This document shows positions 1 to 15,116 of a stretch of 15,116 nt of DNA, one piece after another (within the stretch, counting starts at the first letter, position 1; the number at the start of each line of letters is the position of its first letter). Both the position numbers and the translations under genes were made by a program. The DNA is from Bacteriovoracaceae bacterium. Its GTDB lineage: Bacteria > Bdellovibrionota > Bacteriovoracia > Bacteriovoracales > Bacteriovoracaceae. Where the stretch lies: the NCBI GenBank assembly GCA_041586955.1, contig JBFGZE010000081.1, forward strand, positions 1-15,116, in the 5' to 3' direction. The notes beneath the pieces were generated by a model. The model saw only the letters and a list, made by a program, of their open reading frames with translations. It made no database searches and was not told the DNA's origin.

Positions 1-141
1 CTAAAAATACTTCCTGAAAACTACAGACTGACCGATCTAAACAATTGGCTTTCCTCTCAAACAAGACGGGAAGATGTTTTCAAAAATAAACTAATTCCCG
101 AGCTGAAGGAAAAATTCGACGTTGTAATCTTTGACTGTTCA
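1..141 (+). repeat. Left copy of 141-bp terminal direct repeat (circular assembly overlap)
   Basis: ctaaaaatacttcctgaaaac...tttgactgttca is identical to 14976-15116. Confidence 0.97.
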
Positions 142-534
142 CCAAACTGGAACGAGTTAATTAAAAATGCTTTGTCGTGCTGCGACATGGTTGTTTCACC
201 AGCATCGATTAAAGCCGGCACCTACCAGTGCTTTAATAGATCAATTGCAATGGTTGAGGACTTTTGTGCCGACATCGGAAAAAAGGTAAACGTTGTTGTT
301 CTACCGACCCTTAGAAAGAATACAGTTCTTGCAAGACAAATTGCTGGTGCCCTAGCCACTGATTATGCAGAAGAAATTACCAGTTCAGAAATTAGAGAAG
401 TTGTTGCCGGAGAAGAGGCTAACATTCAGGGCTTAACAGTGTTTGAAAGTTCTCCTAAATCATCTCTTAGCAAAGACTACTTTGACGTCTTTCAGGAAAT
501 CTGGGCGCGACTCAATAAAAAGGACTTAAACTAA
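1..534 (+). CDS. parA: ParA-family partition ATPase, 3' part
   Basis: Frame 1 reads LKILPENY...KFDVVIFDCSPNWNELIKNAL (Walker B), then the ParA-type C-terminus VVVLPT...EANIQGLTVFESSPKSSLSKDYFDVFQEI. Stop TAA at 532-534. Confidence 0.93.
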   Translation, partial: LKILPENYRLTDLNNWLSSQTRREDVFKNKLIPELKEKFDVVIFDCSPNWNELIKNALSCCDMVVSPASIKAGTYQCFNRSIAMVEDFCADIGKKVNVVVLPTLRKNTVLARQIAGALATDYAEEITSSEIREVVAGEEANIQGLTVFESSPKSSLSKDYFDVFQEIWARLNKKDLN

Positions 535-1889
535 TGGCCGGAAAAGACTTTGAAACAAGCTTGAGCAGACATGGGAGACGCACTATTGCAAGAACCGTTG
601 CGACTTCTCGCTGCAATTCTTCCAAGCCTGAGAATATCCTTGACGAAAGAAAAATCAGAAAGAGGGCTCCCGCAAGCATTATTAATAATTACAAAAATCC
701 AATTAGTGAAAATAAGAAGGGCCCTAGAAAACCAGGACCAAAAAAGAAACAAAGTGAAGACAAACTAGAGACGGACCAGAGACAAACTAGAGACAAAGTA
801 AAGGCAAAACCGGAGACAAACCAGAGACAGAGTAAAGACAAGCTAGAAGTAAGGGCAGGGTCGGACAGAGATAAAGTAGAGACAACAGAGTTGAAGCGCA
901 AGCAAAGTGAAGACAAAGTGGAGCCCAAAGTAGAGACGGCACCAGAGACAAAGCAGAGACAAACCGAAGACAAAGTAGAGACAAAACTTCACTTCTCATC
1001 ATTTTCCGATGTCGAAAAACTGCTAATAAGTTTCATATATGAGGACTGCCTCAGTAACGGCTCGCTCAAAACTAACGAGCTGAAAGTTTCGTTCATCGCC
1101 CAAATGACCAGGACCCCCATTGTAACAGTCAAAAAAACGATACAAAGGCTAGAAAAAATAGGCCACCTAGGTCGAGTAAAATTCAAAAATGGTCGCGGAG
1201 GCTGGACTGCTTATAGTATCTCAAAAAACATCTACGATGAAATTCGAGACATTGAAACAAGAGACAAACTAAATACAAAATGGAGACAAAGTAGAGACAA
1301 AGTAGAGCCCAAAGTGGGGACAGAAGTAGAGACAAGCCTCTCTAGTAGTAGTAGTAATATTAAATTAAATACTATTACTACTAGCGACGACTGGGTACAA
1401 GATATCCAGACACCCGAAAATCTCAAAGCTCTTGGATTTGGTGTAGGGCACATTAAACAACTTAAGGAAAAGTTTTCGATATCACCTGATCAGATTCAAC
1501 ACGGTCTAGAAACTTTTGCATACGATTTAGAAAACGGGGAACTTGAAAGACTTAAAGCTCGTGGAGTTCAAAATATTATTGGTTATTTTTTTGGGGCAAT
1601 GAAAAATGGCGGTTATAATTCTGTGAAAGAAGGGTTTATTTCAGCAGAAGAATTGGCAGAACAGGAAATGATTGAACGCCTTGAGAAGAAGAAGCAAGCA
1701 AGAGAAGAACGAAAAAAGAAATTAGAAGAATTATTATTTGAAGAATGGCTTGAGACAAAAACAGAGCAAGAGTTGACTGAGATAGAGAAGCCAGTGCTTG
1801 GCTTTATGGATACGTTACACAGGGCAAGCCTTAGGGGGCATTTTGTCGATAACGAAATGGCAGAATTTAAAGAAAGCGTGGGAATTTAG
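534..1889 (+). CDS. Putative replication initiator (central winged helix flanked by repeat blocks)
   Basis: TAATG coupling to parA. wHTH-like segment VSFIAQMTRTPIVTVKKTIQRLEKIGHLGRVKFKNGRGGWTAYSI. Internal DNA repeats and AT-rich inverted repeat as in lambda O-type initiators. C-terminal helical domain (VQNIIGYFFGAMK). Rep function is inferred. Confidence 0.6.
   Translation: MAGKDFETSLSRHGRRTIARTVATSRCNSSKPENILDERKIRKRAPASIINNYKNPISENKKGPRKPGPKKKQSEDKLETDQRQTRDKVKAKPETNQRQSKDKLEVRAGSDRDKVETTELKRKQSEDKVEPKVETAPETKQRQTEDKVETKLHFSSFSDVEKLLISFIYEDCLSNGSLKTNELKVSFIAQMTRTPIVTVKKTIQRLEKIGHLGRVKFKNGRGGWTAYSISKNIYDEIRDIETRDKLNTKWRQSRDKVEPKVGTEVETSLSSSSSNIKLNTITTSDDWVQDIQTPENLKALGFGVGHIKQLKEKFSISPDQIQHGLETFAYDLENGELERLKARGVQNIIGYFFGAMKNGGYNSVKEGFISAEELAEQEMIERLEKKKQAREERKKKLEELLFEEWLETKTEQELTEIEKPVLGFMDTLHRASLRGHFVDNEMAEFKESVGI
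746..986 (+). repeat. 11-12-bp phased tandem repeats (consensus about GAGACAAAGTA), block 1; candidate iterons or centromere
   Basis: AGAC-type cores start at 758, 769, 780, 791, (802), 814, 825, 836, (869), 880, 911, (922), 934, 946, 957, 968, 979; brackets mark variant cores. Confidence 0.85.
1261..1336 (+). repeat. Same phased repeat, block 2
   Basis: Cores at 1262, (1273), 1284, 1295, (1306), (1318), 1330. Confidence 0.85.
1342..1384. repeat. 15-bp inverted repeat with A/T-only spacer; candidate origin unwinding element
   Basis: ctagtagtagtagta (1342-1356), atattaaattaaa, tactattactactag (1370-1384); one mismatch. Confidence 0.75.
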
Positions 1890-2201
1890 CCAGAAGCCCA
1901 AAAACAACCACGAGCAGGGCGTCAATGAAGAAACCTAACAAAAGCTATGCGCTACTATATTTAAATCAATCTTGGGCCAATCTGAGTCTTCTGAGACATG
2001 ATAAGTTCAAATAAGGAAGCCTTAGGCATGAGTCCTGCACCATTATTGCAACAAATAAGCTAAGAAAGTATCGCAAATATCATCTGGAAATAGCCCTAAA
2101 GACATCTGTCGCTATCTCAAAAATGAAACAAAACCAAGTTATTCATGATCTTCCCTAGATTTTGGTACCTAATGGTACTAGAAGGTGTTTACCTTCCGAA
2201 T

Positions 2202-2239
2202 AAATCAAGTAGCTACGACGGATTGTGGCTACTTGATTT
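2202..2239. terminator. Hairpin, probable bidirectional intrinsic terminator
   Basis: aaatcaagtagc / gctacttgattt perfect 12-bp stem, extendable with G:U pairs. Lies between the convergent rep-like gene and the 58-aa ORF. Confidence 0.55.
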
Positions 2240-2313
2240 TAAAGTGCCTCTAGCAGTGTTGTGTAAGTAAAAGCCTTAAAAGAAGCTTAGATCAATACTC
2301 TGAACTCCAGGTA

Positions 2314-2490
2314 CTAATTCAAAGACGGTTGAATTACTTCAAGCTTAGTATCAGGAAAACAGGCCTTAAGCTCTCCGAGAAAGACGTTAAGGTCAGTCTT
2401 GTCATCGAATCTGTCTACATTCCACCAGCCCTTTTTGTCGGCGCTGGCTGTTGAGTCGTTTAGCTTCTGAGCTGAAATAATTAAATTCAT
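2314..2490 (-). CDS. Small hypothetical protein, 58 aa (not in ORF track)
   Basis: AAGGA upstream of ATG. MNLIISAQKLNDSTASADKKGWWNVDRFDDKTDLNVFLGELKACFPDTKLEVIQPSLN. Hairpin lies downstream. Confidence 0.55.
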   Translation of the reverse strand: MNLIISAQKLNDSTASADKKGWWNVDRFDDKTDLNVFLGELKACFPDTKLEVIQPSLN

Positions 2491-2876
2491 TCGTGATCCT
2501 TTTAGGGTGTGATCCTAGATTAATAGAAGGATTATTCCTCCTAGCATATATTATATAGTGAGGGTGTTATTTTAAGGTTCTTGGTAATTGCTTCTGACCA
2601 CCTGTAGTGGCTTAAAATTAAAGAGTTTTAGTGATAATTTCAGGGAGGTGTGAAATCATCACTTATTTTGGAAAGGGTTCTCGGTTGCCGACTGTAATTG
2701 CTCCAATATCGTGTGAAATCGGAAAATATCAAGCTTTGTATATAAGTCTTAATGCACTACTTGAATTCTGGATAGGGCCAATTAACCTGTCAGACAACAA
2801 GAAAGAGAAGCATGTGTCAGATCAAGTATCAACCGCTACATAAGCTCTAGCTTTTGAGTGAAAGCGCGCGATCGAT

Positions 2877-3011
2877 TTATTTCTTGTTGTTTTTTATTTC
2901 AATCTTACCTTTAAAAAGATCGGCACTAATGTCTTGTTTTTGATTTTTTGCCAAAAAGCTTAGAAAAATAATGAAAAGAATAGAAATAATAAATACAAAA
3001 ACGGTCTTCAT
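2877..3011 (-). CDS. 44-aa single-transmembrane peptide, type I toxin-like
   Basis: AAGGACACCAG-ATG. MKTVFVFIISILFIIFLSFLAKNQKQDISADLFKGKIEIKNNKK: hydrophobic helix plus Lys-rich tail. Confidence 0.55.
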   Translation of the reverse strand: MKTVFVFIISILFIIFLSFLAKNQKQDISADLFKGKIEIKNNKK

Positions 3012-3213
3012 CTGGTGTCCTTATGTTGATGTTCGTTATCTTGTTTAAAAACAATAGCTGCATAAAAACTAGACACTTTTGAAGGCAAAGCATGGCGAAG
3101 TATTTGACACTATAAGAGATTTAAAATGGTTAATATAACGGCTATTCAAAAGCGAAACAAATTAAGGAAGAGGCGTGGCATTTCTCACTGTTCGGTGCGA
3201 GGTGAAGTAAGTC

Positions 3214-3324
3214 ATGTTTTATGAAAATGAAAATGGAAATGGAAAGACCCCCTCAAAAAAAGAAAGCTTTTGTGGTGTCTTTCTAGTCTTATTGGTTTTA
3301 TCAGGATGTTCGATCGAGTACTAA
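3214..3324 (+). CDS. Possible 36-aa peptide ending in a lipobox-like motif
   Basis: GAGGTG 9 nt upstream of ATG. MFYENENGNGKTPSKKESFCGVFLVLLVLSGCSIEY. Confidence 0.25.
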   Translation: MFYENENGNGKTPSKKESFCGVFLVLLVLSGCSIEY

Positions 3325-3332
3325 CTTTTACA

Positions 3333-4253
3333 CTATATCTTTAGGGTTATATTGAAGTCATTTTTTAAGGCATAGCATGCATTTTGCTTGCTCTTTTTGT
3401 TTGCTCTATTGCAAAGTATCACATAGTCCCTTATGTAGCGATAAACGCCTCTTGAGTTTAAAACTTTACGACTACACTTTTCAAATTCTGCAGTTCCTAG
3501 CATTTTCATAGTATTGGTCCACGTGTTTACTTCGAAGTAGTTACATGACTTAGACCCGTGACCATCAATAAAATCGCCAATGCACCAAATTGAGCGGCTA
3601 GTGCTGGAGCCAACTCCTACATATAAAATACAGAAGGGTGAGCTTGAGACAGATTGATAGCTGTAAGATTTCGAAATTAGTTCTCCTACCTCTTTTTTGA
3701 ACTTCTTACTACCCCTAGGTCTAGTTATCCATTTCTTTTCATATTTCTTTTTCTCTTTCTTGAGGTATCTCTCTGTTTTTGTCATTACTTGCTGTATGTT
3801 TTTGATTAAATGACTTTCACTCAGAAATGATCTTAATTTATCACATGGAATTATTTTAAACTTTTGCCCAAGGCCAAAGAGTCCACCGTAACCTTCCCCT
3901 ATCTTGTCCAGAGAAATAGGAAAGCTTTCTTTTTTTCTGTAGAAACAAATTAATTTATCGTCTCCTTTAACTTTCTGAATTTTTTCAACTTTTTGGAAGA
4001 TTGCATTTGCTAGATCAATTCTTTTCATCAAATCAGCACGTTTTTGCATAAACTCTTCATCGCTCATGCTTTCGAGACTGTCTTTTTGAAACAAGAACTC
4101 ATCATTCACTAAGGGCAATAGGTTTTTGTTAATAAAGCTAAGGCTTTCAATATAGCCATATCTCTTAGCTTCATCTTGAGGGTTTTTTGCTATGAGTGGA
4201 TTTACAGTGGTTATTGATATTAAAAATAAAATGATGATGTGAGTTTTTGGCAT
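3333..4253 (-). CDS. Secreted hypothetical protein with 8 Cys
   Basis: 306-aa ORF; signal-peptide-like N-terminus MPKTHIIILFLISITTVNPLIA; family not recognised. Confidence 0.75.
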   Translation of the reverse strand: MPKTHIIILFLISITTVNPLIAKNPQDEAKRYGYIESLSFINKNLLPLVNDEFLFQKDSLESMSDEEFMQKRADLMKRIDLANAIFQKVEKIQKVKGDDKLICFYRKKESFPISLDKIGEGYGGLFGLGQKFKIIPCDKLRSFLSESHLIKNIQQVMTKTERYLKKEKKKYEKKWITRPRGSKKFKKEVGELISKSYSYQSVSSSPFCILYVGVGSSTSRSIWCIGDFIDGHGSKSCNYFEVNTWTNTMKMLGTAEFEKCSRKVLNSRGVYRYIRDYVILCNRANKKSKQNACYALKNDFNITLKI

Positions 4254-4495: not shown

Positions 4496-4795
4496 CTACA
4501 GCATTGCCTGATAGATCTTTCCAACTGTAGAGCACGATTTTTTACTGTGCCCTGCTATTGTATAGGTTTTTCCATCCGACCCCAGCATCATGAACCCCCC
4601 CTTGCCACCAAAGGGCTTTACCGTTGCGTTTTTGACTATGAATGAATCGATGGATTTTTGAGAGAGAGTGCACTTGTTAGTGTTCATGTTAAATATCCAC
4701 AACTTCTTTAAGCTCTTAACCTTGGATGAATCATGAGCCTTAACGATATTAAGTGTATTTAAAAATAGTAAGCATACGAGAACTAGTTTTTTCAT
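4496..4795 (-). CDS. Small secreted hypothetical protein
   Basis: GGAG RBS; signal peptide MKKLVLVCLLFLNTLNIVKA; two Cys in the mature part. Confidence 0.75.
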   Translation of the reverse strand: MKKLVLVCLLFLNTLNIVKAHDSSKVKSLKKLWIFNMNTNKCTLSQKSIDSFIVKNATVKPFGGKGGFMMLGSDGKTYTIAGHSKKSCSTVGKIYQAML

Positions 4796-4818: not shown

Positions 4819-5340
4819 TTATGCAGCGAGTATTTTTTTCTTTTGGCTTTGAAATTCTTCTTCTGTAAGAATACCTTTTTCTTTTAAGTCAGCTAATTTT
4901 AGGAGTTGGCTTGCTGTATCTTCTCCATCATTGCTTGAACCTTGGCTTTTTGTGGCATTATCAATTTGTGTGTTTAATGCCTCAGTAAATGGTCTAACGG
5001 TATTCTTTATGACATTGGAAATGCTCATCTTTGATGATCCATCCCAAATAGTAATTGTTCCAAGCATTAAACCCGTTTTTTGTTCAATTGAATTGATCTT
5101 TTCAAGTGGCGTTTCAACTTGTTTAAGACCATATAGCATTCCTTTATCGAGAAATATGACCCTGTAGTTCGTGCATACAATTAACCATGTATTTCCATTC
5201 ATAAATCCCGATGTAAGGCCTTTTATTGCTTCATTCTGTCTGAGAATTTCCGGAAGATACTTGATTTCCTTTTTTGTCCCCAGCTGATCTGTATGCTCTA
5301 GACTTTTAATTTGATTCTTGATTTCTTCTAGCGTAGGCAT
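4819..5340 (-). CDS. Bacterial PH-domain (YokE/bPH_3-like) protein with C-terminal SHOCT domain
   Basis: GGAG RBS. LIVCTNYRVIFLDKGMLYGLKQVETPLEKINSIEQKTGLMLGTITI is bPH-like. ASQLLKLADLKEKGILTEEEFQSQKKKIL is the SHOCT signature. Confidence 0.9.
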   Translation of the reverse strand: MPTLEEIKNQIKSLEHTDQLGTKKEIKYLPEILRQNEAIKGLTSGFMNGNTWLIVCTNYRVIFLDKGMLYGLKQVETPLEKINSIEQKTGLMLGTITIWDGSSKMSISNVIKNTVRPFTEALNTQIDNATKSQGSSNDGEDTASQLLKLADLKEKGILTEEEFQSQKKKILAA

Positions 5341-5491
5341 TTACATCTCCATAAGTTGACTTTTCTTTTCCGTTGATCGCCTTAATTTAAAATAAAAGTG
5401 AGATAAGTTTTCTTGGATTATTGAATAAGTAGTTATTTAGAGAGCTTACAAAATAATTAAGGATTTTTATATTGTGGGCGATATTGTGAAT

Positions 5492-5740
5492 ATGAAAATT
5501 ATAAACATAATTAGCTTTTGCATTATTTTATTTTCGTTTATAGGTTGCGGGTCTGAGGAAAAAGATGCCAGCGAAAGTTTAACTCGCATTTGCAAGGTGC
5601 CGGTGAAAAGTCACTCCGGTTGTTGTTCAAGTCACGGTGGTTTCAATAATAATAACTGTGAAGCGACTCATTTATTATATGAAGATGGCAACCGTTTAGT
5701 GTGCGACGACGGTGTTGTTTCTCCAACTTGTACATACTGA
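5492..5740 (+). CDS. Small Cys-rich lipoprotein with GCCSxHGG motif
   Basis: Likely start ATG 5492. MKIINIISFCIILFSFIGC lipobox; SGCCSSHGG...LVCDDGVVSPTC. Confidence 0.75.
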   Translation: MKIINIISFCIILFSFIGCGSEEKDASESLTRICKVPVKSHSGCCSSHGGFNNNNCEATHLLYEDGNRLVCDDGVVSPTCTY

Positions 5741-5987
5741 TTCCTGTTTAAATACTAGTTGTAAGTATATGTCTTTTATGTGTGTTTCGATGTTTAGTTA
5801 AGAAAACTTGGGTTTTTTCTTGATAACTTCAGCCGATAAGACAAAAAAGGATGTCTTTATCTTCTATCATTAAAAATGAAGTAGGCATTATGTATCGTAA
5901 TAGAAACACTGATAGCTTTTTTAGAGAAAAATATTTTTTGGTATAAACTTGAAATCTCTGATGAGAAATCAAATAAGGTCGTTGAAT

Positions 5988-7049
5988 ATGGCGTGGTATT
6001 TTAGAAAATCATTGAAGCTTGGTCCTGTAAGACTTAATTTTTCTAAAAAGGGGTTGGGTTGTTCCGTCGGCGTTAAAGGGTTAAGGGTTGGCCAGGCAGC
6101 AACTGGAAAAGAGTATATCCATGCTGGAAGGAATGGTTTTTATTACAGGAAGAGTCTGGGGGGCGCGAAATCAAGCAAAAGTGAAGAGCAAGTTATTGAT
6201 AGCAAGGTAGATAAAGGAAGCGTAATACATACAATAAAGGCTATTTTGTTAAATGACGAGAGTGCGCTTCTTAACCAGCTTAAAAAATCAAAAGAGCAAT
6301 TTCGCCTTGATTACCTTGCTTCGCTCATCTGTTTTATATTGTCATGGGTGCTATGGAGTATTAATAATATCACTGGACTTTTGTTTATAGCAGGAAGTTT
6401 GATTTTAGTGTCAATTGTTGCGTATTTTGAAAGTAAAAGAAGAACTGTCATTATGGATTATGATTTTTCTGAGGCAGAGTATAATAGCTATGAAAATATC
6501 GTTAACTCATTTAACCATCTCGCATCATGTAAGAAGGTGTGGCAGGTCCTACAAAGTAAAGGTATAAGCGGAAAGGATGTTAAAAGAAATGCTGGAGCCA
6601 GCCATCTTGTAGAACGTTTGGATATTCAGTTAGGAGAGGGGCTGCCGCCATGGGTAGAGTCTAATATAAATTTTCCGACGATAAATGGAAAAGATCAAAC
6701 AATTTACTTCCTTCCTGAAGGGGTGCTGATCTATGACAGCAGTGGAATTGGTATAGTGCAATACAAAGACATAGATATCTCTTGTTCTCTTAATAGATTT
6801 ATCGAAGATGGAAATGTTCCTAGTGATTCAACTATTGTAGATTATACATGGCAACATCCTAACAAATCAGGCGGTCCTGATAAGAGATTTTCTAGTAATA
6901 GACAAATTCCGATTTGCTCTTATGGCGGTTTGGATATTACAAGTAAAAATGGTTTTAGAATAATGATATATGCTTCAAATAGTGAAAGTATTGAATTGTT
7001 CTCAAGTGGTTTTGAAAGAGTCATTAGTGTAAAGCCCAGGTCTGCGTAG
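5988..7049 (+). CDS. DUF4236-domain membrane protein
   Basis: N-terminus MAWYFRKSLKLGPVRLNFSKKGLGCSVGVKGLRVG...GFYYRK is the DUF4236 pattern, which places the start at ATG 5988. Two hydrophobic segments; C-terminal WQHPNKSGGPDKRF motif. Confidence 0.88.
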   Translation: MAWYFRKSLKLGPVRLNFSKKGLGCSVGVKGLRVGQAATGKEYIHAGRNGFYYRKSLGGAKSSKSEEQVIDSKVDKGSVIHTIKAILLNDESALLNQLKKSKEQFRLDYLASLICFILSWVLWSINNITGLLFIAGSLILVSIVAYFESKRRTVIMDYDFSEAEYNSYENIVNSFNHLASCKKVWQVLQSKGISGKDVKRNAGASHLVERLDIQLGEGLPPWVESNINFPTINGKDQTIYFLPEGVLIYDSSGIGIVQYKDIDISCSLNRFIEDGNVPSDSTIVDYTWQHPNKSGGPDKRFSSNRQIPICSYGGLDITSKNGFRIMIYASNSESIELFSSGFERVISVKPRSA

Positions 7050-8940: not shown

Positions 8941-9090
8941 GTTTGTGCGCTCCTTTCTTTGTTGTTGCTGGTGAGATTTGAACCCATTTCTTTTCAGCAG
9001 CTTTTCTCCACCTGCTGCCGTCTTTTCGAGTGGTGACATGGCCAATGGGAAATGCTCTGCTATTAAGTGTGAATTTGAATTTCATTTTTT

Positions 9091-9669
9091 CTACCTCAAT
9101 AAATGCGCTATGGAGTTGGCGTTATATTTTCTCACTTCCTCTTGGTAGGAGATAAACTCTTGCGCTGGCCCCTGCTTTTTGTTCCGCTCAAAGAATTTTT
9201 TTCTTTCTAATGTTTCTCGAAAGCGATTTAGGGCCAGGACTGCGCACTTAAGGTAACGATTATCATTTTCGGGATTGTAACTTTTGCGCTCCCCCCACAG
9301 GCGGTAAAATTTTTTGTCATCGACAATTATTCTATCTTCTTTCCAGATTCCAGCAATGGCGCTAGATAGCTCCACATCAAGATCGGCGATATTGGCGCTA
9401 AAGGGAATGCCTTCTACCCTAATGCGATATCTCGCATCGCTATCAATCAGTTTCTCTACAAAGACGCTCTCCCTTGGACTGTTCACCACGATGGAGAAGT
9501 CTTTCGACTCAGGCTCAATCTGGGCGGATAATTCTTTTTTGAGGTGGTGAAATGATGGGGCTTCAATTGAATCCTTCAGAACCATTTTGTTTTTTTCAAG
9601 ATGCCAAACCATCATGAGGGCTTGGCTTGAATTACTATTACAGGGGTTAATGGAAATAATTCGCTGCAT
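9091..9669 (-). CDS. Hypothetical protein; probable degenerate terminase RNase H-like nuclease domain
   Basis: AGGAG RBS next to the terL stop. Motif order parallels the TerL C-terminus but lacks the acidic catalytic residues. Confidence 0.6.
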   Translation of the reverse strand: MQRIISINPCNSNSSQALMMVWHLEKNKMVLKDSIEAPSFHHLKKELSAQIEPESKDFSIVVNSPRESVFVEKLIDSDARYRIRVEGIPFSANIADLDVELSSAIAGIWKEDRIIVDDKKFYRLWGERKSYNPENDNRYLKCAVLALNRFRETLERKKFFERNKKQGPAQEFISYQEEVRKYNANSIAHLLR

Positions 9670-9678: not shown

Positions 9679-11340
9679 CTAGCTAAAAATATCACGGTGT
9701 TCGACTTTTGTTGTGACTCTAATGAGCATCTCCAAAGCGTCGGGAAAGTCGTCGCTGTCGGCATGGGGGAAGTCCTCTAGAGTGTTCAAAATTTCCGGGG
9801 AAATGGCGCGATTGAAGATCACTTGCCCATGAGTCACCCGCGGCTCGATTGAAAAGATCCTGCGCTCCTTGTTTTCAGTATTGTGCAAAGGCAGAAAATA
9901 GAGAGGAATGACCTCGCCAATCTCTTGCTGTCTGCGCTCTCTTTCAGCTTCTAGGTTCTCTATAAGCAGTCCTGAGAAATGATTTTTTTCAACTCCAAAA
10001 TTCTGGTAATGAAAATAGTTATTGAGATCAAAGACTTTTCTAACTATTTCAGTGGGGGGCATGCGCCTAAACACAACGTCGTGAATTAGCACCCTATTGT
10101 CGGGGGAGAGAAAACCCGACACTATTGCGGTGTAATCGGACAATTGGCCGGCCTTGCCTCCGCCACTTGAGGGGTCAATCACCCCAAAAGATTTATGCTG
10201 TAATTCTGAAAAGAGAAATTCTGTGCCCGATTCTAAAATCAGGCGTCCTTCAACAAAGTCGTAATAGTGGATCTTGTCGAACACTTTTTCTTCGGCTCCT
10301 AACGGAGACCCTTGCTTTTCCTTAAAGAATGCCCTTTTTCCCTTCTCTATCAACTCCTTGTAGAGATAGAGAAATGGTTCTTTCTGTGGCCAAAGGACCT
10401 CCACTCCCTGAAGCATATCGTCCTTGTTTTCTTCAAAGAAATTATCCGCTTCAATTGATCTCGCTTCAGATTCGAGATCGGTATAGATTTTTGAAAATTT
10501 GTCCCAAAGGTCTGTTCTCTCTGGCCAATTTAGGACTGCTGAGAAAAGTTCTGACTCGTAGGCAGGGTTTTTAGTGAGGTTCATGAGGAGAGAATCTCTG
10601 TGAAGAATTGTTCCGACTAACTCAATATTGGTACTTGTATCCCCCAGATTAGCGACAACTTGCATGAGCCAATCAAACATTTTGATTCTCAGCCTTTCAT
10701 TAAAAACTTCTTCGGAGTGCTCAATGTCATCTAGAACAATCTTGCTTGGTCTGTAATGTCCATACTTCAATCCTCTCACTTCACTTCCTGCACCAAATGC
10801 CATGAATTTGCATGATCCATTCGCGGTGTGAACGACGAACTCTGTTCGGCCAGGTTTTTTAGTGTCAAAGCGTATTCCAAAGTCATTAATAAGGTCCTTA
10901 TTTGTAAGAAATTCGGTCAGGATTTCGAATATTTTTTGGTTACTCTGGACCATGGTATTGGAAAAAATAACGATAAAGTTTTCATAGCCATAACAGGCAT
11001 CGTGCAGAAGCTTGATGAAACAGGCTATGGTTGACTTTGCATAACCCCTCGGCGCTGCCCAAGCAGCTCGAAGACCTCTTTCATTGTATTTTTCTGTATA
11101 TCTACTAAAGAGCTTTTTGTGGAAATTATTAAAAGGATATTTACAATAATGGGGGAAGTATTTTTTTGAAAAAAGCTCTACGTCTGTTGCCATACGAGCG
11201 ATTAGAACTCTTTTCTTGTTATTTTCAGATTCTTGCCGGTCGTAAAAATCTAGAAAATCCTTCTTCGATAGAGCCGATAATTTGACGATAATTTCCGAGT
11301 AGATTCTTCCAACAAAAGAAGCTCCATGAACTATGCTCAT
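9679..11340 (-). CDS. terL: Phage terminase large subunit
   Basis: Walker A AAPRGYAKST, RG motif, Walker B KIVLDDIE, coupling motif GTILH. Nuclease motifs VIDPS, SDYTAI, FGVEKN, KERRI, DDFPDAL. Confidence 0.95.
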   Translation of the reverse strand: MSIVHGASFVGRIYSEIIVKLSALSKKDFLDFYDRQESENNKKRVLIARMATDVELFSKKYFPHYCKYPFNNFHKKLFSRYTEKYNERGLRAAWAAPRGYAKSTIACFIKLLHDACYGYENFIVIFSNTMVQSNQKIFEILTEFLTNKDLINDFGIRFDTKKPGRTEFVVHTANGSCKFMAFGAGSEVRGLKYGHYRPSKIVLDDIEHSEEVFNERLRIKMFDWLMQVVANLGDTSTNIELVGTILHRDSLLMNLTKNPAYESELFSAVLNWPERTDLWDKFSKIYTDLESEARSIEADNFFEENKDDMLQGVEVLWPQKEPFLYLYKELIEKGKRAFFKEKQGSPLGAEEKVFDKIHYYDFVEGRLILESGTEFLFSELQHKSFGVIDPSSGGGKAGQLSDYTAIVSGFLSPDNRVLIHDVVFRRMPPTEIVRKVFDLNNYFHYQNFGVEKNHFSGLLIENLEAERERRQQEIGEVIPLYFLPLHNTENKERRIFSIEPRVTHGQVIFNRAISPEILNTLEDFPHADSDDFPDALEMLIRVTTKVEHRDIFS

Positions 11341-12008
11341 TGGTGGTCACTCTCTTTAAGGTCGAGCAATTCTTCTAGAATCCTTCGATCATTGCTTTCG
11401 TTAATTGTACTTTTAACTGTTTGATCCTGACTGCTCTCAATTAAATCCAACTCCCTTTGTTTGTTCTTGATGTCACTCAAAATTTTGAATGTGCGTGCCA
11501 GTCCTCTTTGCACCTCTTCTGGATCTTTGAACTCTAGGACGAGCCCGTGTTCAGTGGGGGTAATTTTTTTAATAAGTTTTCTAGCGGGCTGAGGTATCTC
11601 TTCAATGCTCTTTGGAACCCAGTTCCCCTTAAAAAAATCCGTGACATCAGTTGAGACAGATCGTGCCAGCTCCAAATTGTTTTGAGCAAAAATCGCAGAA
11701 AAGGAACTGGTTGCGAGTTGGGTCCTCATGGCGATGTACTCCTGAACTGCCTTGCAACTGTTAAGCAAGGCGTACGCCTTTTGTTTTGCCGTTTTCCTAG
11801 GATAGCCTGCTATTATTGCCGCTTCAGTTTCATCGCGGCCTTGGAGCCATTCGTCACAAAAAGCCCGCTGCTTTTTGGTCAATTGAAATTCATCCTTCGT
11901 TAAATCCCGAAGCTCCTCTATTTTGCTGGCCTTTTTTACATTACCCGACACAAATACCCAGGCGAAAACTAGTTGTGGCGGTGCGTCTGGCTGCACAGCG
12001 AAGGCCAC
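11337..12008 (-). CDS. terS: Phage terminase small subunit (true start may be downstream, e.g. GTG 11951)
   Basis: LTKKQRAFCDEWLQGRDETEAAIIAGYPRKTAKQKAYALL...VQEYI is the Terminase_2-type HTH signature. ATGA overlap with terL. Confidence 0.92.
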   Translation of the reverse strand: MAFAVQPDAPPQLVFAWVFVSGNVKKASKIEELRDLTKDEFQLTKKQRAFCDEWLQGRDETEAAIIAGYPRKTAKQKAYALLNSCKAVQEYIAMRTQLATSSFSAIFAQNNLELARSVSTDVTDFFKGNWVPKSIEEIPQPARKLIKKITPTEHGLVLEFKDPEEVQRGLARTFKILSDIKNKQRELDLIESSQDQTVKSTINESNDRRILEELLDLKESDHQ

Positions 12009-12026: not shown

Positions 12027-12938
12027 TCACAACAGGTCCGCTACTAAACATAACGAGTTCTCAAAACCAGCTCTTCTCTTATGGTAGTGAATAGTGGTGG
12101 ATGGTTGCTTATGGCCGACCTCCGTCATAATTTGGTAAAGGTCATGGCCTTGCTCGAAAAGATAAGTAATAAAAGTTGCCCTCAATGAATGAGTAGTGAC
12201 ATTAGGAATGGAGGCTAGCGAAGCGTACTTCTTTACGATGGACCCCATTCCTTTGGGCGATATTTTTTTACAAAAGATCGATTGAAAGAAATAATCCTTT
12301 TGCCCAATGCGGTTTCCTTTTTTTCTTTGAAGATTTCGGTATTCATGAACATAGCGGGCGACATCGTCACGTAGGGGGAGAAAGTACTCCGCTCCACCTT
12401 TGCGTTTTATTTTAATTATGATTTTTCCGTTCGTGAAAGAGATTTCTGAACCCTTAATGTTAGCAATCTCCCCTTGCCTCACCCCTGTCGTTAGAAGCAC
12501 TGAGATTAAAGCGATGTGCATTTTATTTTTACCATTTAGGACTTCGTTGAAAAATCTCTTTGCTTCCTCTTGAGACAAAGCTGTCGTTTCTCGCGTTGGT
12601 CTAACATTTCTAATTTTTACACCCAGAGTGGGATTAATTGGAATTATCGACTCTTCTGATAACCACTGAAAAAAGTCCCTAATGCTCGCAAGTTTTCTGG
12701 CAACCGTTTTTTTAGATGCCTCTCCACCGCTCATCCCTCCCTTTTTTTTTGCCTGGGCCAAAAAGGTTTTGAGGTGCCCTTTTTTTACGTCTTTAAAGTG
12801 GCGAATGCCTTCCTGGCTTAGAAACTCACCAAACTGGTTAAGGTCAATTCGCAGCGCCTTGATTGTGTGCTCGTTGTGCTTTTGCCTCAAAAAGCGCCTA
12901 AAGATCTCTAATTCAGAAATTTTTTTTGTCTCTTCCAT
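12027..12938 (-). CDS. XerC/XerD-like tyrosine recombinase/integrase
   Basis: SAM-like N-terminus (HTIKALRIDLNQF...TVARKLASIRDFFQWL...NP). Catalytic motifs TGVRQGE, KRKG, HSLR, VGH...TTIHY. AAGGA RBS. Confidence 0.93.
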   Translation of the reverse strand: MEETKKISELEIFRRFLRQKHNEHTIKALRIDLNQFGEFLSQEGIRHFKDVKKGHLKTFLAQAKKKGGMSGGEASKKTVARKLASIRDFFQWLSEESIIPINPTLGVKIRNVRPTRETTALSQEEAKRFFNEVLNGKNKMHIALISVLLTTGVRQGEIANIKGSEISFTNGKIIIKIKRKGGAEYFLPLRDDVARYVHEYRNLQRKKGNRIGQKDYFFQSIFCKKISPKGMGSIVKKYASLASIPNVTTHSLRATFITYLFEQGHDLYQIMTEVGHKQPSTTIHYHKRRAGFENSLCLVADLL

Positions 12939-13034: not shown

Positions 13035-13895
13035 ATGTCGAAAAGGCCTTTAAAAGAGCACGAGAAATACTTTAGTAATCTTGAGAAATTATTACTGGAT
13101 GCCTATGGCCATATGCGACCTCCGGAAAAAGATGACTTTCGCCCGTTGATAAAAAAACTATCAAGACTAAACAGAGAAAGAGATGCTGAGGACTATTTCG
13201 ACAACCTAGAGCAATTGCTATTTGAAGCTTACGATATTTTGAAGTTTTGGGATAATGAGTACCACTACCTGCTGTTTAAAACCATTTCAATGCTAAACTA
13301 TGAAAGAGGCACTGAGGATTATTTTGAAAATTTCGAAGACTTTGGTGAGGTCGCGCGTATCCGACAGGAAAATGAGGAGTTCTCATTGTCAAAAAAACGG
13401 TGCCTTGCTTATCTAAAAAAAATCAATGCAAGGCTTGATGAATATAGCTCTCTTTTTCATTTTGATGAAAGTCAATCTGATCCATTTTTTAATCAAAAAT
13501 TGATGTGGATAAGGAAAGTCTATACGAGCTTGGCATCCTTGAATGATTCGTTTGCGGAGAAGTGCATTATTACACATTTTGATGCTTCCCTATATATTGA
13601 TTTAAAACACTTTAATGATACGGTTGCTGAGGTAAACAGAACCATTGCAAGCATCAAAAAAATGCCTATTAATATTCATCTCAACATGGAAATAAAAGAG
13701 AAAGAAACCACAGACGCCCATCGCTTCCTAAAAGAATATCAAAATGCAAAAGTTCTTGAAGTGGAAACAACAAGGAAACGAAAGCAGAGAGCTGCCAAAA
13801 ATGAAAATAATTCACATCACACAGTTGCTACTCTAGCAATGATCGAGTCCGAAATAAAAAATATTTTGTTAAGCTTGCCAGATGATACGAACTAA
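13035..13895 (+). CDS. Hypothetical helical protein with N-terminal 42-aa tandem repeat
   Basis: 286-aa ORF divergent from the recombinase-terminase block; ExYFxN at residues 10, 52 and 94. Confidence 0.75.
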   Translation: MSKRPLKEHEKYFSNLEKLLLDAYGHMRPPEKDDFRPLIKKLSRLNRERDAEDYFDNLEQLLFEAYDILKFWDNEYHYLLFKTISMLNYERGTEDYFENFEDFGEVARIRQENEEFSLSKKRCLAYLKKINARLDEYSSLFHFDESQSDPFFNQKLMWIRKVYTSLASLNDSFAEKCIITHFDASLYIDLKHFNDTVAEVNRTIASIKKMPINIHLNMEIKEKETTDAHRFLKEYQNAKVLEVETTRKRKQRAAKNENNSHHTVATLAMIESEIKNILLSLPDDTN

Positions 13896-14010: not shown

Positions 14011-14048
14011 GGGACATTTTTTTATTATTTTTTTTAAAAAAATGTCCC
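14011..14048. promoter_or_regulatory. Perfect 14-bp inverted repeat (terminator or operator)
   Basis: gggacattttttta (14011-14024), 10 nt, taaaaaaatgtccc (14035-14048), followed by a T run. Confidence 0.55.
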
Positions 14049-14110
14049 TTTTTATTCTACGGCATAAGCCCTAGGCTCGAACAACAACATTGTTAACGAG
14101 GAAGGACAAA

Positions 14111-14329
14111 GTGTACCCACTAGAAAAAGAACTATGTGAAGATGAGTTATTAAAAAGAAGAATTCGTGTCGCCCTTGCTTCACGGGAGATGACCCAGATT
14201 TCTCTATCTAAGAAAGTTTGCATTCAAGAGGGGCGGTTATCAAGAATTGTTAATTCTCACGTTGTGCCATCCATTACCGAAAAAAGAAAAATTGAAAAAG
14301 AGCTAGGCCCAATCTGGAGCAAGTTGTAA
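14111..14329 (+). CDS. XRE/Cro-family helix-turn-helix regulator
   Basis: AAGGA RBS before GTG 14111; RIRVALASREMTQISLSKKVCIQEGRLSRIVNSHVVPSITEKRKIEKELG. Confidence 0.85.
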   Translation: MYPLEKELCEDELLKRRIRVALASREMTQISLSKKVCIQEGRLSRIVNSHVVPSITEKRKIEKELGPIWSKL

Positions 14330-14444
14330 GAATTTAAATGCGGTTTTGCATGCCTTTCGCACAATACGCCGCAATAGGTACGATAAAAAAAGGATTTTAT
14401 TTATCGCTCTTAAATAACGTATTTCATGACCTGTAATGTTTTTT

Positions 14445-14473
14445 TGGACATTTCGTATTTAATAGACTTTAAT
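14445..14473 (+). promoter_or_regulatory. Possible parA promoter
   Basis: TGGACA, 17 bp, TTTAAT upstream of the parA RBS. Confidence 0.3.
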
Positions 14474-14507
14474 ATTGTTAAACACGAAACCGCATAGGAG
14501 ATATTCA

Positions 14508-15116
14508 ATGGAAAGAATGTATTCGCCTTCAGAGGTTATTAATATCCTAAGAAGTGAATTTACCAAGAGATCACTTCAGACCTCTGAGACAGCTGGCGAC
14601 ATTCCAAAAGCAACGAGAATAAAGACCGGACAGGTTGAGCGTAGAAAATGGCCAATTAACGACATTCCATCAATTGGGGAACGTTTTGGTCAGTTCAAAA
14701 AGCCTTCTGAAGCCAAGGTTGTTACGTTTTTCACAGCCAAGGGCGGAACTCTCAAAACGACAACGTCATTCAACTTTGGCAGAACTCTTGCCCTTCATGG
14801 GGTATCTGTTTGCTTGGTCGGTTTAGATATTCAAGAATCGCTCACAATAATGGCCCTGCCCGAACAAGAGGTTGAGTCACTGTCTGACTTTAAGGAAAGG
14901 AAAGGTTTGGGCGATTACTTTTGCGACAAGCTAGAGTCAGTCAATGAGTGCCTGTGTGACACAGACTTACCAACCCTAAAAATACTTCCTGAAAACTACA
15001 GACTGACCGATCTAAACAATTGGCTTTCCTCTCAAACAAGACGGGAAGATGTTTTCAAAAATAAACTAATTCCCGAGCTGAAGGAAAAATTCGACGTTGT
15101 AATCTTTGACTGTTCA
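14508..15116 (+). CDS. parA: ParA-family partition ATPase, 5' part (continues through the junction to 534; 333 aa in total)
   Basis: AGGAG at 14496-14500, ATG at 14508. Translation MERMYSPSEVINILRSEF...KVVTFFTAKGGTLKTTTSFNFGRTLALHGVSVCLVGLDIQESL gives a deviant Walker A and A' after an N-terminal extension of about 70 aa. Missed by the ORF track because it runs off the end. Confidence 0.93.
   Translation, partial: MERMYSPSEVINILRSEFTKRSLQTSETAGDIPKATRIKTGQVERRKWPINDIPSIGERFGQFKKPSEAKVVTFFTAKGGTLKTTTSFNFGRTLALHGVSVCLVGLDIQESLTIMALPEQEVESLSDFKERKGLGDYFCDKLESVNECLCDTDLPTLKILPENYRLTDLNNWLSSQTRREDVFKNKLIPELKEKFDVVIFDCS
14976..15116 (+). repeat. Right copy of 141-bp terminal direct repeat (circular assembly overlap)
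   Basis: Identical to 1-141 and lies inside the parA coding sequence. Confidence 0.97.

What the first reader, a model, noticed from the sequence alone, without database searches (positions are those of the whole stretch)
1..14975. 15-kb circular plasmid-like replicon with a complete terminase but no recognisable head or tail genes: candidate new type of phage satellite
Seen: the circle closes, so the gene inventory is complete. It has parA and a rep-like gene, plus coupled terS-terL with ATPase and nuclease motifs intact. None of the remaining ORFs looks like a portal, capsid, protease, tail or lysis protein. Known: PICIs typically carry TerS or a redirecting factor but not TerL; cf-PICIs carry TerS and TerL together with portal, protease and capsid; P4 carries no terminase; these are usually integrated and lack ParA. 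Inference: this element is maintained as a plasmid and uses its own motor to load its DNA into helper-phage proheads. The size is in the satellite range and might be packaged as concatemers.
Basis: partly seen in the sequence, partly recalled or inferred. Interest (0 to 1): 0.9.

Follow-up and report, generated by a model that had tools for sequence, protein, structure and literature searches.

The report
Small plasmid carrying a phage terminase
A 15-kb circular plasmid carries an intact pair of phage DNA-packaging genes but no other recognisable virus-particle gene, so it may ride in another phage's heads, though this single example cannot show that.

Summary
Bases 1-141 repeat exactly at 14976-15116, so the unit is a 14,975-bp circle, and parA reads in frame across the junction. 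The circle has parA, a 451-aa winged-helix "rep-like" gene filled with 11-nt iteron-like repeats, and an overlapping terS-terL pair. TerL keeps all 80 invariant columns of its family. No head, tail or lysis gene was found by Pfam, PHROGs or NCBIfam, by reverse searches with 6,364 ORFs from 80 related loci, or by a portal profile. Fold tests of two orphan ORFs failed (pLDDT 36.5 and 50.7).

Two tyrosine recombinases flank the terminase block. The element is also a chimera. Its backbone belongs to a recurrent family of small plasmids, including two Bdellovibrio plasmids. Its TerL sits inside a clade of ~44-kb myovirus-like phages with the usual terS-terL-portal-capsid-sheath order.

The satellite reading is plausible. 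The motor is intact, no decayed phage genes remain, three units equal 44.9 kb, and marine plasmid-like VEIME satellites are a precedent. It is not shown: every protein is a singleton, the nearest TerL is about 51-52% identical, and no helper or second copy was found. A recently captured, functionless phage fragment is nearly as likely.

The parts
1..141 (.). Terminal duplicate; it equals 14976-15116 and marks closure of a 14,975-bp circle.
   Evidence: Exact 141-nt direct repeat at spacing 14975; identity checked in a script.
14475..15116 (+). parA, 5' part. The ORF continues through the junction to window 534, 344 aa in all.
   Evidence: AAA_31 3.5e-18, CbiA 3.8e-07; phrog_164 ParA-like 5.8e-20; circular ORF; alignment to the ParA region of pBdHAGR2 spans the junction.
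1..534 (+). parA, 3' part (same ORF as above).
   Evidence: 5'-open ORF 1-534, joined in frame on the circle.
534..1889 (+). Rep-like or centromere-binding winged-helix protein, 451 aa. Its start overlaps the parA stop.
   Evidence: Besides the window's own protein, 85 relatives on contigs of at most 38.8 kb. A homologue lies just after parA in Bdellovibrio pBdHAGR4 and pBdHAGR2. The family profile hits MecI/BlaI/Lrs14 winged helices. Of 12 family members, 5 hit MarR, 4 DnaD_N and 3 Phage_rep_O, all weakly.
745..1336 (+). Two arrays of 11-nt iteron-like repeats (core AGAGACAAA), at 745-995 and 1251-1336. They lie inside the rep-like ORF and flank its winged-helix coding part.
   Evidence: Repeat family D1 with 11-nt spacing. 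22 matches against 7.9 +/- 2.6 expected, with 0 of 200 shuffles reaching 22; 14 of the 22 lie in 745-1336. The same motif forms arrays in the pBdHAGR4 homologue.
1890..3332 (.). 1.4-kb stretch with no ORF over 70 aa; function unknown.
   Evidence: ORF lists; no Rfam or tRNA hit; no convincing repeats.
3333..4253 (-). Orphan 306-aa protein with a hydrophobic N-terminus (probably secreted).
   Evidence: Translation; no Pfam, PHROG, NCBIfam or PADLOC hit; protein atlas blank.
4496..4795 (-). Orphan 99-aa protein with a signal-peptide-like N-terminus.
   Evidence: Translation; no family hit.
4819..5340 (-). Bacterial PH domain plus SHOCT protein, 173 aa; accessory gene.
   Evidence: bPH_3 5.8e-20, SHOCT 5.5e-08; phrog_2700, unknown function, 6.7e-55.
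5474..5740 (+). Small 88-aa lipoprotein-like ORF.
   Evidence: Translation; no family hit.
5949..7049 (+). DUF4236 protein, 366 aa; accessory gene. The exact start is uncertain.
   Evidence: DUF4236 4.1e-17; phrog_17982, unknown function, 9.3e-49; this exact ORF is not in the protein collection.
7104..7442 (+). Orphan 112-aa ORF.
   Evidence: ORF list; no family hit.
7501..8511 (-). Tyrosine recombinase, 336 aa; last gene of the minus-strand block.
   Evidence: Phage_integrase 1.8e-12; phrog_1 6.6e-19; 24% identical to the other recombinase.
8605..9045 (-). Orphan ORF of up to 146 aa downstream of terL; start uncertain.
   Evidence: ORF list; no family hit; this exact ORF is not in the collection.
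9091..9669 (-). Orphan 192-aa ORF 9 nt downstream of terL, preceded by an AGGAG-like ribosome-binding site.
   Evidence: Upstream sequence. Among 1.84 billion representatives only itself and two repeat-protein hits were found. No PDB hit. AlphaFold model pLDDT 36.5.
9679..11340 (-). terL, large terminase, 553 aa, full length.
   Evidence: phrog_38 1.8e-67; TIGR01630 3.3e-10; 80 of 80 invariant columns kept; placed inside a 29-row clade with 99% SH-aLRT support.
11337..12008 (-). terS, small terminase, 223 aa; overlaps terL by 4 nt.
   Evidence: Terminase_2 2e-15; phrog_51 2.3e-15; 27% identity over 91 aa to the TerS of phage locus L004.
12027..12938 (-). Xer-like tyrosine recombinase, 303 aa; first gene of the minus-strand block, 18 nt upstream of terS.
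   Evidence: Phage_integrase 1.9e-21, Phage_int_SAM_1 1.5e-14; XerC/XerD models at 1e-36, below their cut-offs.
13035..13895 (+). Orphan 286-aa protein, mostly helical in a low-confidence model.
   Evidence: No relative in 5.8 billion clusters; protein atlas blank; AlphaFold model pLDDT 50.7, mostly helices.
14090..14329 (+). Small XRE-type HTH regulator, 79 aa, upstream of parA.
   Evidence: HTH_3 4.1e-4, below the Pfam cut-off; phrog_3 repressor 8.3e-05.

Best explanation
The window is a complete 14,975-bp plasmid from a recurrent family of small ParA/winged-helix plasmids. The host is probably a member of Bdellovibrionota or a similar group. The plasmid has captured the DNA-packaging module (terS-terL) of a lineage of ~44-kb myovirus-like phages.

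Shown:
- The circle closes.
- The plasmid module is present, with iteron-like repeats inside the rep-like gene.
- A tightly packed minus-strand block reads recombinase, TerS, TerL, two orphan ORFs, recombinase.
- TerL is intact.
- No detectable particle or lysis gene is present.

Inferred, and my preferred mechanism:
- The plasmid is a phage hitch-hiker. When a related helper phage grows in the cell, plasmid TerS recognises a pac site on the plasmid.
- Plasmid TerL docks on helper proheads and fills them by headful packaging with plasmid multimers. Three units are 44.9 kb, about one helper genome.
- After injection, the tyrosine recombinases and/or homologous recombination re-circularise the DNA and resolve it to monomers.
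- ParA and the iteron-binding protein then maintain it as a plasmid.
For: 1. Closure and plasmid module.

2. The packaging genes look functional. terS and terL overlap by 4 nt. TerL is full length and keeps 80 of 80 invariant columns. Its path length in the tree (1.07) falls within the clade's range of about 0.56-1.18. The longest path belongs to L005, a genuine phage with RecT, TerS, TerL, portal and capsid genes.

3. There is no debris of other phage genes. 6,364 ORFs from 80 related loci, searched against the circle, matched nothing credible outside terL, apart from the TerS and integrase of L020. A portal profile built from 33 sequences found nothing in six frames. A decaying phage would be expected to leave fragments.

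4. The element is a chimera, not a shrunken phage-plasmid. The rep-like family sits only on contigs of at most 38.8 kb. The TerL clade sits on 40-48 kb contigs with terS-terL-portal-scaffold-capsid-sheath order. None of the window's other proteins occurs in the 80 TerL loci, apart from weak matches of the TerS and both recombinases to one distant locus, L020.

5. Size. 35 of 119 listed TerL relatives lie on contigs of 40.2-48.2 kb, none on a longer one, with a median of 44,455 bp. Three plasmid units are 44,925 bp.

6. Of the 60 PLSDB plasmids listed (of 75 that match this TerL family), none with at least 77% coverage is shorter than 37.1 kb. A 15-kb carrier is therefore unusual.

7. Precedent. 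[quoted passage not shown]
Against: - There is only one example. All eight window proteins found in the collection are singleton clusters.
- The nearest TerL is about 51-52% identical, so no candidate helper is known. The gene set is not shown to recur.
- The window TerL departs from the family consensus more than any of the 20 relatives compared. It agrees at 127 of 152 highly conserved columns, against 134-144 of 145-153 for the others. Its end branch is 1.07 against a median of 0.4. This could mean relaxed constraint, though it may simply reflect its basal position.
- GC3 of the xer303-to-o146 block (0.435-0.487) is higher than that of parA (0.406), the rep-like gene (0.372) and the accessory genes (mostly 0.29-0.37; o99 is 0.49). 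This fits a fairly recent capture that has not been tested by selection.
- No pac site, att site or resolution site could be identified.
- No described satellite carries TerL without also carrying portal and capsid genes.
- TerL must fit a portal, and TerS alone is enough for the known satellites that redirect packaging (recalled).
Confidence: 0.4

Rival explanations
1. Functionless passenger. A small plasmid recombined with a phage, perhaps through one of its tyrosine recombinases, and now carries a recently acquired terS-terL fragment. The fragment has no role in the plasmid's transfer and will decay.
For: - The element is a singleton with no recurrence.
- The block has higher GC3 than the backbone.
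- The window TerL is the most divergent of 21 at conserved columns and has a long end branch.
- The two ORFs after terL are orphans without any relative (for o192; no family hit for either).
- Gene flow between phages, phage-plasmids and plasmids, and loss of phage genes from phage-plasmids, are documented (PMC10879196, one passage).
Against: - Both genes are whole and translationally coupled, and all 80 invariant TerL columns are kept.
- No other phage fragment is left on the circle.
- The block from xer303 to int336 takes about 36% of a small plasmid, a heavy load if useless (inference).
- The TerL path length is matched by a genuine phage in the same clade.
Confidence: 0.33
2. Packaging interference or defence cargo. 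The plasmid expresses TerS and TerL to compete with, or misdirect, the terminase of infecting phages of the ~44-kb lineage. This protects the host without the plasmid itself being transferred.
For: - Satellites are known to interfere with helper packaging through TerS-like or terminase-targeting proteins (abstracts in the listing: PMC11071384 and 10.1101/2025.02.27.640495).
- The VEIME paper lists small terminases among phage-interference genes.
- The accessory genes nearby (bPH-SHOCT, DUF4236) belong to PHROG families of unknown function.
Against: - No PADLOC defence model is hit above noise by any of the 17 ORFs.
- Interference would not need a catalytically complete 553-aa TerL (inference).
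- There is no experimental precedent for a whole terminase acting as a defence system. Searches found none, but they do not cover subscription journals.
Confidence: 0.1
3. Integrated mini-element. The block from int336 to terS (about 7.5-12.0 kb) is itself a small integrative satellite-like island that landed in an ordinary plasmid. The plasmid is then only its landing site.
For: - A tyrosine recombinase lies at each end of the block.
- The block's GC3 differs from the backbone.
- Small integrative satellites that are packaged as concatemers are known (PICMI and VEIME; abstracts and passages).
Against: - No direct repeat of 11 nt or more joins the two flanks.
- int336 has low GC3 (0.341), like the accessory region and unlike the terminase genes.
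- No replication gene lies inside the block.
Confidence: 0.08
4. Assembly artefact. The circle is a false loop, or a piece of a larger phage-plasmid genome.
For: - The only evidence for circularity is a 141-nt end overlap. This is the kind of overlap assemblers produce (recalled).
- Read data were not available.
Against: - The junction falls inside parA and restores one full-length ORF that aligns to a plasmid ParA across the join.
- The circle holds a complete maintenance module.
- The rep-like family is never seen on contigs above 38.8 kb.
- The TerL clade's loci lack that family within 10 kb of terL.
Confidence: 0.05

Closest known systems
VEIMEs (virion-encapsidated integrative mobile elements), plasmid-like subgroup; Eppley et al. 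2022, PMC9618062
   Same: Small marine mobile elements without a major capsid gene. [quoted passage not shown] They are packaged as multimers that fill helper-sized heads (passages; Data S5 and S6).
   Different: In Data S5 the only large-terminase annotation (COG4220) occurs in 5 satellites and in 0 VEIMEs, whereas the window has a full TerL. VEIMEs are defined by having been found inside particles, which is unknown here.
Capsid-forming PICIs (cf-PICIs)
   Same: Satellites that carry both TerS and TerL of their own (PMC10085698, passage).
   Different: cf-PICIs also carry capsid, portal, protease and head-tail adaptor and connector genes, and nearly all are chromosomal (969 found, all but three in chromosomes). 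The window has none of these genes and is a ParA plasmid.
Classical PICIs/SaPIs and P4
   Same: Their size is about one third of the helper's. SaPI-type PICIs redirect packaging with their own TerS, and P4 can live as a plasmid (PMC9618062 and PMC10085698 passages; the SaPI and P4 details are recalled).
   Different: They have no TerL. They carry primase/replicase and capsid-size genes that the window lacks (no such hit). They are normally integrated.
Phage-plasmids (P1-like and others)
   Same: ParA-type maintenance together with a terminase. A site-specific recombinase lies beside the packaging genes, which recalls P1 Cre-lox near pac (recalled).
   Different: Phage-plasmids carry the whole virion and lysis gene set. 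Of the 60 PLSDB plasmids listed (of 75 that match this TerL family), none with a near-full-length match is shorter than 37.1 kb. The window is 15 kb with no structural genes.
Bdellovibrio sp. HAGR004 plasmids pBdHAGR4 (11.9 kb) and pBdHAGR2 (48.3 kb)
   Same: The same parA followed by winged-helix gene pair. pBdHAGR4 also has arrays of the same 11-nt motif inside the gene.
   Different: Neither plasmid has an annotated terminase. A tblastn of the window's TerL and TerS against both found nothing.

Membership tests
Large terminase (TerL, PHROG 38 type) | Full-length two-domain protein that matches a TerL profile. | tested here: met
   phrog_38 1.8e-67 over residues 34-541; TIGR01630 3.3e-10, just under its cut-off. 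No Pfam or PDB sequence hit.
Large terminase (TerL, PHROG 38 type) | ATPase (Walker A and B) and nuclease acidic residues conserved. | tested here: met
   G99/K102/S103/T104, D204/D205/E207 and D389/D530/D531/D534 are among 80 columns invariant in 21 sequences. The motif names are recalled.
Small terminase (Terminase_2) | Match above the Pfam gathering score, and adjacency to terL. | tested here: met
   58.1 bits against a cut-off of 26.1; 4-nt overlap with terL.
Plasmid (ParA partition plus iteron-type initiator) | ParA-type ATPase. | tested here: met
   AAA_31, CbiA and phrog_164.
Plasmid (ParA partition plus iteron-type initiator) | Replication initiator of a recognised Rep family. | tested here: inconclusive
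   The window protein passes no Rep Pfam family. Family members give only weak winged-helix hits that include DnaD_N and Phage_rep_O. It could be a centromere-binding protein instead.
Plasmid (ParA partition plus iteron-type initiator) | Clustered direct repeats (iterons or a centromere). | tested here: met
   22 matches to AGAGACAAA with up to one mismatch against 7.9 expected; 14 are clustered at 745-1336 with 11-nt phasing. Binding was not tested.
Plasmid (ParA partition plus iteron-type initiator) | Relatives on confirmed plasmids. | tested here: met
   pBdHAGR4 and pBdHAGR2 of Bdellovibrio sp. HAGR004.
cf-PICI | Own major capsid, portal, protease and head-tail adaptor/connector genes in addition to terS and terL. 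| tested here: not met
   No such hit among 17 ORFs. Reverse tblastn and a portal profile were negative. Folds of the orphan ORFs remain unresolved.
PICI (classical) | Chromosomal island with integrase, master repressor, primase/replicase, and TerS or a redirecting factor, and no TerL. | tested here: not met
   Recombinases and TerS are present, but so are TerL and ParA. No primase/replicase hit was found, and the element is a closed circle.
P4-like satellite | Core genes: psu, sid, delta, alpha primase, and the integrase-cos arrangement. | tested here: not met
   Apart from tyrosine recombinases, no family hit corresponds to these. The list of core genes is recalled.
VEIME | Recovered as concatemers inside virus particles. 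| not testable with these tools
VEIME | Small element without a major capsid gene, with a recombinase and, in one subgroup, ParA/RepA-like genes. | tested here: met
   for the window; for the definition.
Phage-plasmid | Complete virion and lysis gene set on a plasmid replicon. | tested here: not met
   Only terS and terL are phage-like.

The most novel reading that the evidence does not exclude
A new satellite strategy: a capsid-less plasmid that brings a whole terminase holoenzyme (TerS plus TerL) rather than only a specificity subunit. It uses this motor to load three-unit plasmid multimers into the proheads of a ~44-kb helper myovirus, then re-circularises with its own tyrosine recombinases. 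A bolder variant is that the plasmid and a particle-encoding phage form a two-replicon partnership, with the packaging motor residing on the plasmid.
Probability: 0.35. Interest if true: 0.8.

Novelty: new variant of a known kind. Interest (0 to 1): 0.55.

Why it matters
If the terminase is used, this would be the first hitch-hiking element known to supply the complete packaging motor while taking heads and tails from a helper. That would widen the range of ways in which plasmids and phages exchange roles. It would also offer a natural test of how specific the TerL-portal fit is, and it would add a route for plasmid transfer in little-studied hosts (probably marine predatory bacteria). If the terminase is not used, the element is a snapshot of a plasmid that has just captured a phage fragment, which is ordinary. 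Separately, the 11-nt repeats read in all three frames inside the rep-like gene are a clear example of a DNA-level signal shaping a protein sequence.

Tried and rejected
- Nucleotide search of the whole circle against PLSDB found no match.
- PDB sequence searches with o192, with TerL and with the TerL profile found no hit.
- Protein atlas searches for o286 and o306 gave no usable hit.
- An exhaustive HMMER search with o192 and a word-index search with o286 found no relatives, so no alignments were available for folding.
- AlphaFold on single sequences gave pLDDT 36.5 for o192 and 50.7 for o286. Both are too poor for fold comparison.
- Rfam and tRNA scans of the window found nothing.
- The promoter and terminator scan was at chance level: 42 against 32.6 +/- 6.7, and 15 against 12.9 +/- 3.1.
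- Searches for att-like direct repeats around the terminase block, and for lox/dif-like palindromes near the recombinases, found nothing convincing.
- The PADLOC defence scan gave only noise-level hits, on the HTH protein and ParA.
- I considered and rejected the idea that o192 and o146 are a decayed portal. There was no tblastn hit from 6,364 related-locus ORFs and no portal-profile hit. The portal profile was heterogeneous (906 positions from 33 sequences), so it is a weak test.
- I considered Leptospira as host from the GC content. It was dropped, because the rep-like family points to Bdellovibrio plasmids and a marine 'Deltaproteobacteria' MAG.
It did not recover the window itself or any small element with the same gene set.
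- Four literature searches for a TerS+TerL-only satellite found none.

Full report
**1. What is in the window**

Bases 1-141 are identical to 14976-15116. The window is therefore one 14,975-bp unit written with a 141-nt overlap. The join falls inside an ORF, and on the circle that ORF reads through as a 344-aa ParA. Its 5' part hits AAA_31 (3.5e-18), CbiA and phrog_164. The ParA region of a Bdellovibrio plasmid aligns to residues 81-268, across the join at residue 167/168. A false loop remains possible without reads. A junction that restores a full-length conserved gene argues against it.

**2. Gene inventory**

Plus strand:
- An XRE-type HTH protein (14090-14329).
- parA (14475 through the junction to 534).
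- A 451-aa protein (534-1889) whose start overlaps the parA stop.
- An orphan 286-aa protein (13035-13895).
- A small lipoprotein-like ORF (5474-5740).
- A DUF4236 protein (5949-7049).
- An orphan 112-aa ORF (7104-7442).

Minus strand, a tight six-gene run:
- Xer-like tyrosine recombinase (12938-12027).
- terS (12008-11337).
- terL (11340-9679).
- An orphan 192-aa ORF (9669-9091), preceded by an AGGAG-like site.
- An orphan ORF of up to 146 aa (9045-8605).
- A second tyrosine recombinase (8511-7501).

Further along the minus strand are a bPH+SHOCT protein and two orphan proteins that are probably secreted. A 1.4-kb stretch (1890-3332) holds no ORF over 70 aa and no Rfam or tRNA hit.

**3. The terminase**

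- terS matches Terminase_2 (2e-15, above the cut-off) and phrog_51.
- terL has no Pfam hit, but matches phrog_38 "terminase large subunit" at 1.8e-67 over residues 34-541.
- The two genes overlap by 4 nt.
- In an alignment with 20 of its best relatives, 80 columns are invariant in all 21 sequences, the window included. These include the G-x-x-K-S-T stretch (99-104), D204/D205/E207, and D389/D530/D531/D534. I read these as Walker A, Walker B and nuclease residues; the names are recalled.
- The window TerL is also the least typical of the 21. Where the other 20 agree at 90% or more, it agrees at 127 of 152 columns. Each other sequence agrees at 134-144 of 145-153 columns in the same leave-one-out test.
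- In a tree with outgroups it lies inside a 29-row clade (SH-aLRT 99), at a basal polytomy, with an end branch of 1.07 against a median of 0.4.
- I added up branch lengths from the clade's base. Other members come to about 0.56-0.85, and L005 comes to 1.18.
- L005 is a genuine phage: RecT, TerS, TerL, portal, head-morphogenesis and major head protein.
- So the window's TerL evolves at the fast end of the clade's range, but within it. This neither proves nor excludes relaxed constraint.

**4. Where the terminase came from**

- The best relatives are about 51-52% identical.
- Of the 119 relatives listed, 35 lie on contigs of 40.2-48.2 kb and none on a longer contig. The median of those 35 is 44,455 bp by my count. 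That pattern points to complete genomes of about 44 kb.
- In reference genomes the nearest loci are L001, L002, L004 and L005/L006, at 38-47% identity. They include 43-46 kb contigs binned with Chitinivibrionales, Chlamydiae and Bacteriovoracaceae MAGs.
- L002 and L004 show the order terS, terL, portal, head-morphogenesis or scaffold, major head protein (phrog_544), and later a tail sheath. The donor lineage is therefore myovirus-like.
- Among named phages the best matches are only about 30-33% identical. They include Mu-like Pseudomonas phages (D3112, DMS3, MP38), Mushuvirus and others.

**5. No other phage genes**

- None of the 17 ORFs hits a head, portal, protease, tail or lysis family.
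- None of the window's other proteins occurs in the 80 TerL loci. The exception is weak matches of TerS and the recombinases to one distant locus, L020.
- In the reverse direction, 6,364 ORFs of at least 60 aa from those loci were run by tblastn against the circle. Only chance-level hits appeared outside terL, again apart from L020.
- A profile of 33 portal-position proteins found nothing in six frames, with a best E-value of 2. That profile was heterogeneous, so the test is weak.
- At fold level the check failed. o192 and o286 have no relatives, and their single-sequence models are unreliable: pLDDT 36.5, and 50.7 with mostly helices.
A capsid or portal fold is unlikely on size and composition. 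o306 and o99 have signal-peptide-like N-termini, and no ORF other than TerL and the rep-like protein exceeds 366 aa. It is not formally excluded.

**6. The backbone is a known kind of small plasmid**

- Besides the window's own protein, the 451-aa protein has 85 relatives (E up to 0.001, the best about 50% identical). All lie on contigs of 1-38.8 kb, many of 10-22 kb. The one named source is a marine "Deltaproteobacteria" MAG, and some cluster members come from ocean metagenomes.
- In PLSDB the best match is the 11.9-kb plasmid pBdHAGR4 of Bdellovibrio sp. HAGR004 (38% identity over 61% of the query). There the homologue directly follows parA.
- The 48-kb pBdHAGR2 of the same strain has the same gene pair and otherwise ordinary plasmid cargo.
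- The family's central domain is a winged helix. The profile hits MecI/BlaI/Lrs14 structures, and members give weak hits to MarR, DnaD_N, Phage_rep_O and HTH_36.
- On both sides of that domain the gene holds arrays of an 11-nt repeat with core AGAGACAAA. There are 22 matches in the window against 7.9 +/- 2.6 expected, and 0 of 200 shuffles reach 22. Fourteen of them lie in 745-1336.
- Three consecutive 11-mers make one 33-nt, 11-codon unit, so the same DNA word is read in all three frames. The repeat therefore looks selected as DNA, not as peptide (my reading).
- pBdHAGR4 has arrays of the same word in the same places. Other family members have 11-residue peptide repeats of different sequence there.
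- I read these as iterons or a centromere bound by the protein's own winged helix. Whether the protein is the initiator, the partition adaptor or both is not settled.
- Host assignment to Bdellovibrionota is tentative. It rests on these plasmids and on one Bacteriovoracaceae phage in the TerL clade.

**7. Composition**

| Genes | GC3 |
|---|---|
| xer303, terS, terL, o192, o146 | 0.435-0.487 |
| parA | 0.406 |
| rep-like gene | 0.372 |
| int336 | 0.341 |
| Most accessory genes (o99 is 0.49) | 0.29-0.37 |

The terminase block, together with the upstream recombinase, is thus mildly distinct from the rest. This fits capture as one unit.

**8. How it most likely works**

Shown: the circle, the maintenance module, an intact terminase, and the absence of detectable particle genes.

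Inferred: the plasmid uses TerS and TerL to have its own multimers packaged by headful into proheads of a related helper. After injection it is re-circularised and resolved by its recombinases, in the way P1 uses Cre-lox near pac (recalled).

In favour:
- The module is intact and coupled.
- There is no phage-gene debris.
- The origin is chimeric: a small-plasmid backbone plus a motor from a ~44-kb phage lineage.
- Three units make 44,925 bp against the clade's median of 44,455 bp. This is weak evidence, because a headful mechanism does not need an exact fraction and the match could be chance.
- Of the 60 PLSDB plasmids listed (of 75 matching this TerL family), none with at least 77% coverage is under 37.1 kb.

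Against:
- It is a single example with no helper in sight.
- TerL is at the fast end of its clade.
- The block's GC3 hints at recent capture.
- No pac, att or resolution site could be found.
- No precedent exists for a satellite carrying TerL without a portal.

I put this reading at 0.4 and a functionless recent capture at about 0.33. Packaging interference (0.1), an integrated mini-element (0.08) and an assembly artefact (0.05) are well behind.

**9. Comparison with what is known**

- SatelliteFinder's families: cf-PICIs are told apart from PICIs by head-tail adaptor and connector genes and by terL, and nearly all are chromosomal. P4-like elements are almost never found as plasmids in genomes (PMC10085698, passages).
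- VEIMEs were found as concatemers in marine virus particles. They encode no major capsid gene, and some have TerS. [quoted passage not shown] The authors ask whether some exist mainly as plasmids (PMC9618062, passages).
- In that paper's Data S5 the only large-terminase entry (COG4220) counts 5 satellites and 0 VEIMEs. ParA (COG1192) counts 35 VEIMEs. The table may list only the commoner annotations.
- A review lists PICMI, VEIMEs, tycheposons and the plasmid pDolos. It notes that some satellites package several genome copies per head (PMC11389934, passages).
- Conversion of phage-plasmids to plasmids by loss of phage genes is documented (PMC10879196, one passage).
- Four full-text searches found no report of a capsid-less element with both terminase subunits. 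The library lacks most subscription journals, and I read listings and passages only.

The window works most like a plasmid-type VEIME, with a TerL added. It is not a member of the PICI, cf-PICI, P4-like or phage-plasmid families, because defining features of each were tested and not met.

**10. Verdict and what stayed unchecked**

If real, the element is a new variant of a known kind (phage-hitching plasmids and satellites). I score interest at 0.55.

Unchecked:
- Recurrence in metagenome and viral contig collections (closed).
- Read-level closure and virome coverage.
- CRISPR-based host assignment.
- Folds of seven orphan ORFs.

Noticed in passing
window 745-995 and 1251-1336 (inside ORF 534-1889); L081 2527-2734 and 2999-3083: 11-nt repeats (core AGAGACAAA) are phased one helical turn apart and embedded in the rep-like coding sequence on both sides of its winged-helix domain. 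Three 11-mers make one 11-codon unit, so the same DNA word is translated in all three frames. The same word recurs in the Bdellovibrio pBdHAGR4 homologue. Other family members have 11-residue peptide repeats of different sequence at the same places. This suggests iterons or centromere sites that co-vary with the protein.
   Followed up: partly
L020 491-4642 (Peptococcaceae MAG contig, 7.6 kb): In this distant relative a tyrosine integrase gene (1341-2210) and two small reverse ORFs sit between terS (491-1147) and terL (3044-4642). It is the only locus of the 80 whose TerS and integrase resemble the window's.
   Followed up: partly
L005 and L006 (two contigs of 46,191 and 45,558 bp in one Bacteriovoracaceae MAG): One MAG holds two separate ~46-kb contigs whose TerL genes match the window's equally well (38% identity). 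These are possibly two related extrachromosomal or free phage genomes in one bin. L005 has RecT, TerS, TerL, portal and capsid genes.
   Followed up: partly
window 3333-7442: A low-GC accessory region (GC 0.33-0.37 in 1-kb windows) encodes two secreted-looking orphan proteins, a small lipoprotein-like ORF, a bPH+SHOCT protein (phrog_2700, 6.7e-55) and a DUF4236 protein (phrog_17982, 9.3e-49). The last two families are common in phages but have no known function.
   Followed up: no
window 1890-3332: A 1.4-kb stretch without any ORF over 70 aa, RNA family or tRNA, which is unusually long for a 15-kb plasmid. It could hold an origin, a packaging site, an unrecognised RNA or decayed DNA. No homology to related phage genes was found.
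   Followed up: partly
window 12925-12933 (minus strand): A single exact copy of the iteron word AGAGACAAA lies at the 5' end of the Xer-like recombinase gene that heads the terminase block. It may be chance, or a link between the plasmid's DNA-binding protein and expression of the block.
   Followed up: no
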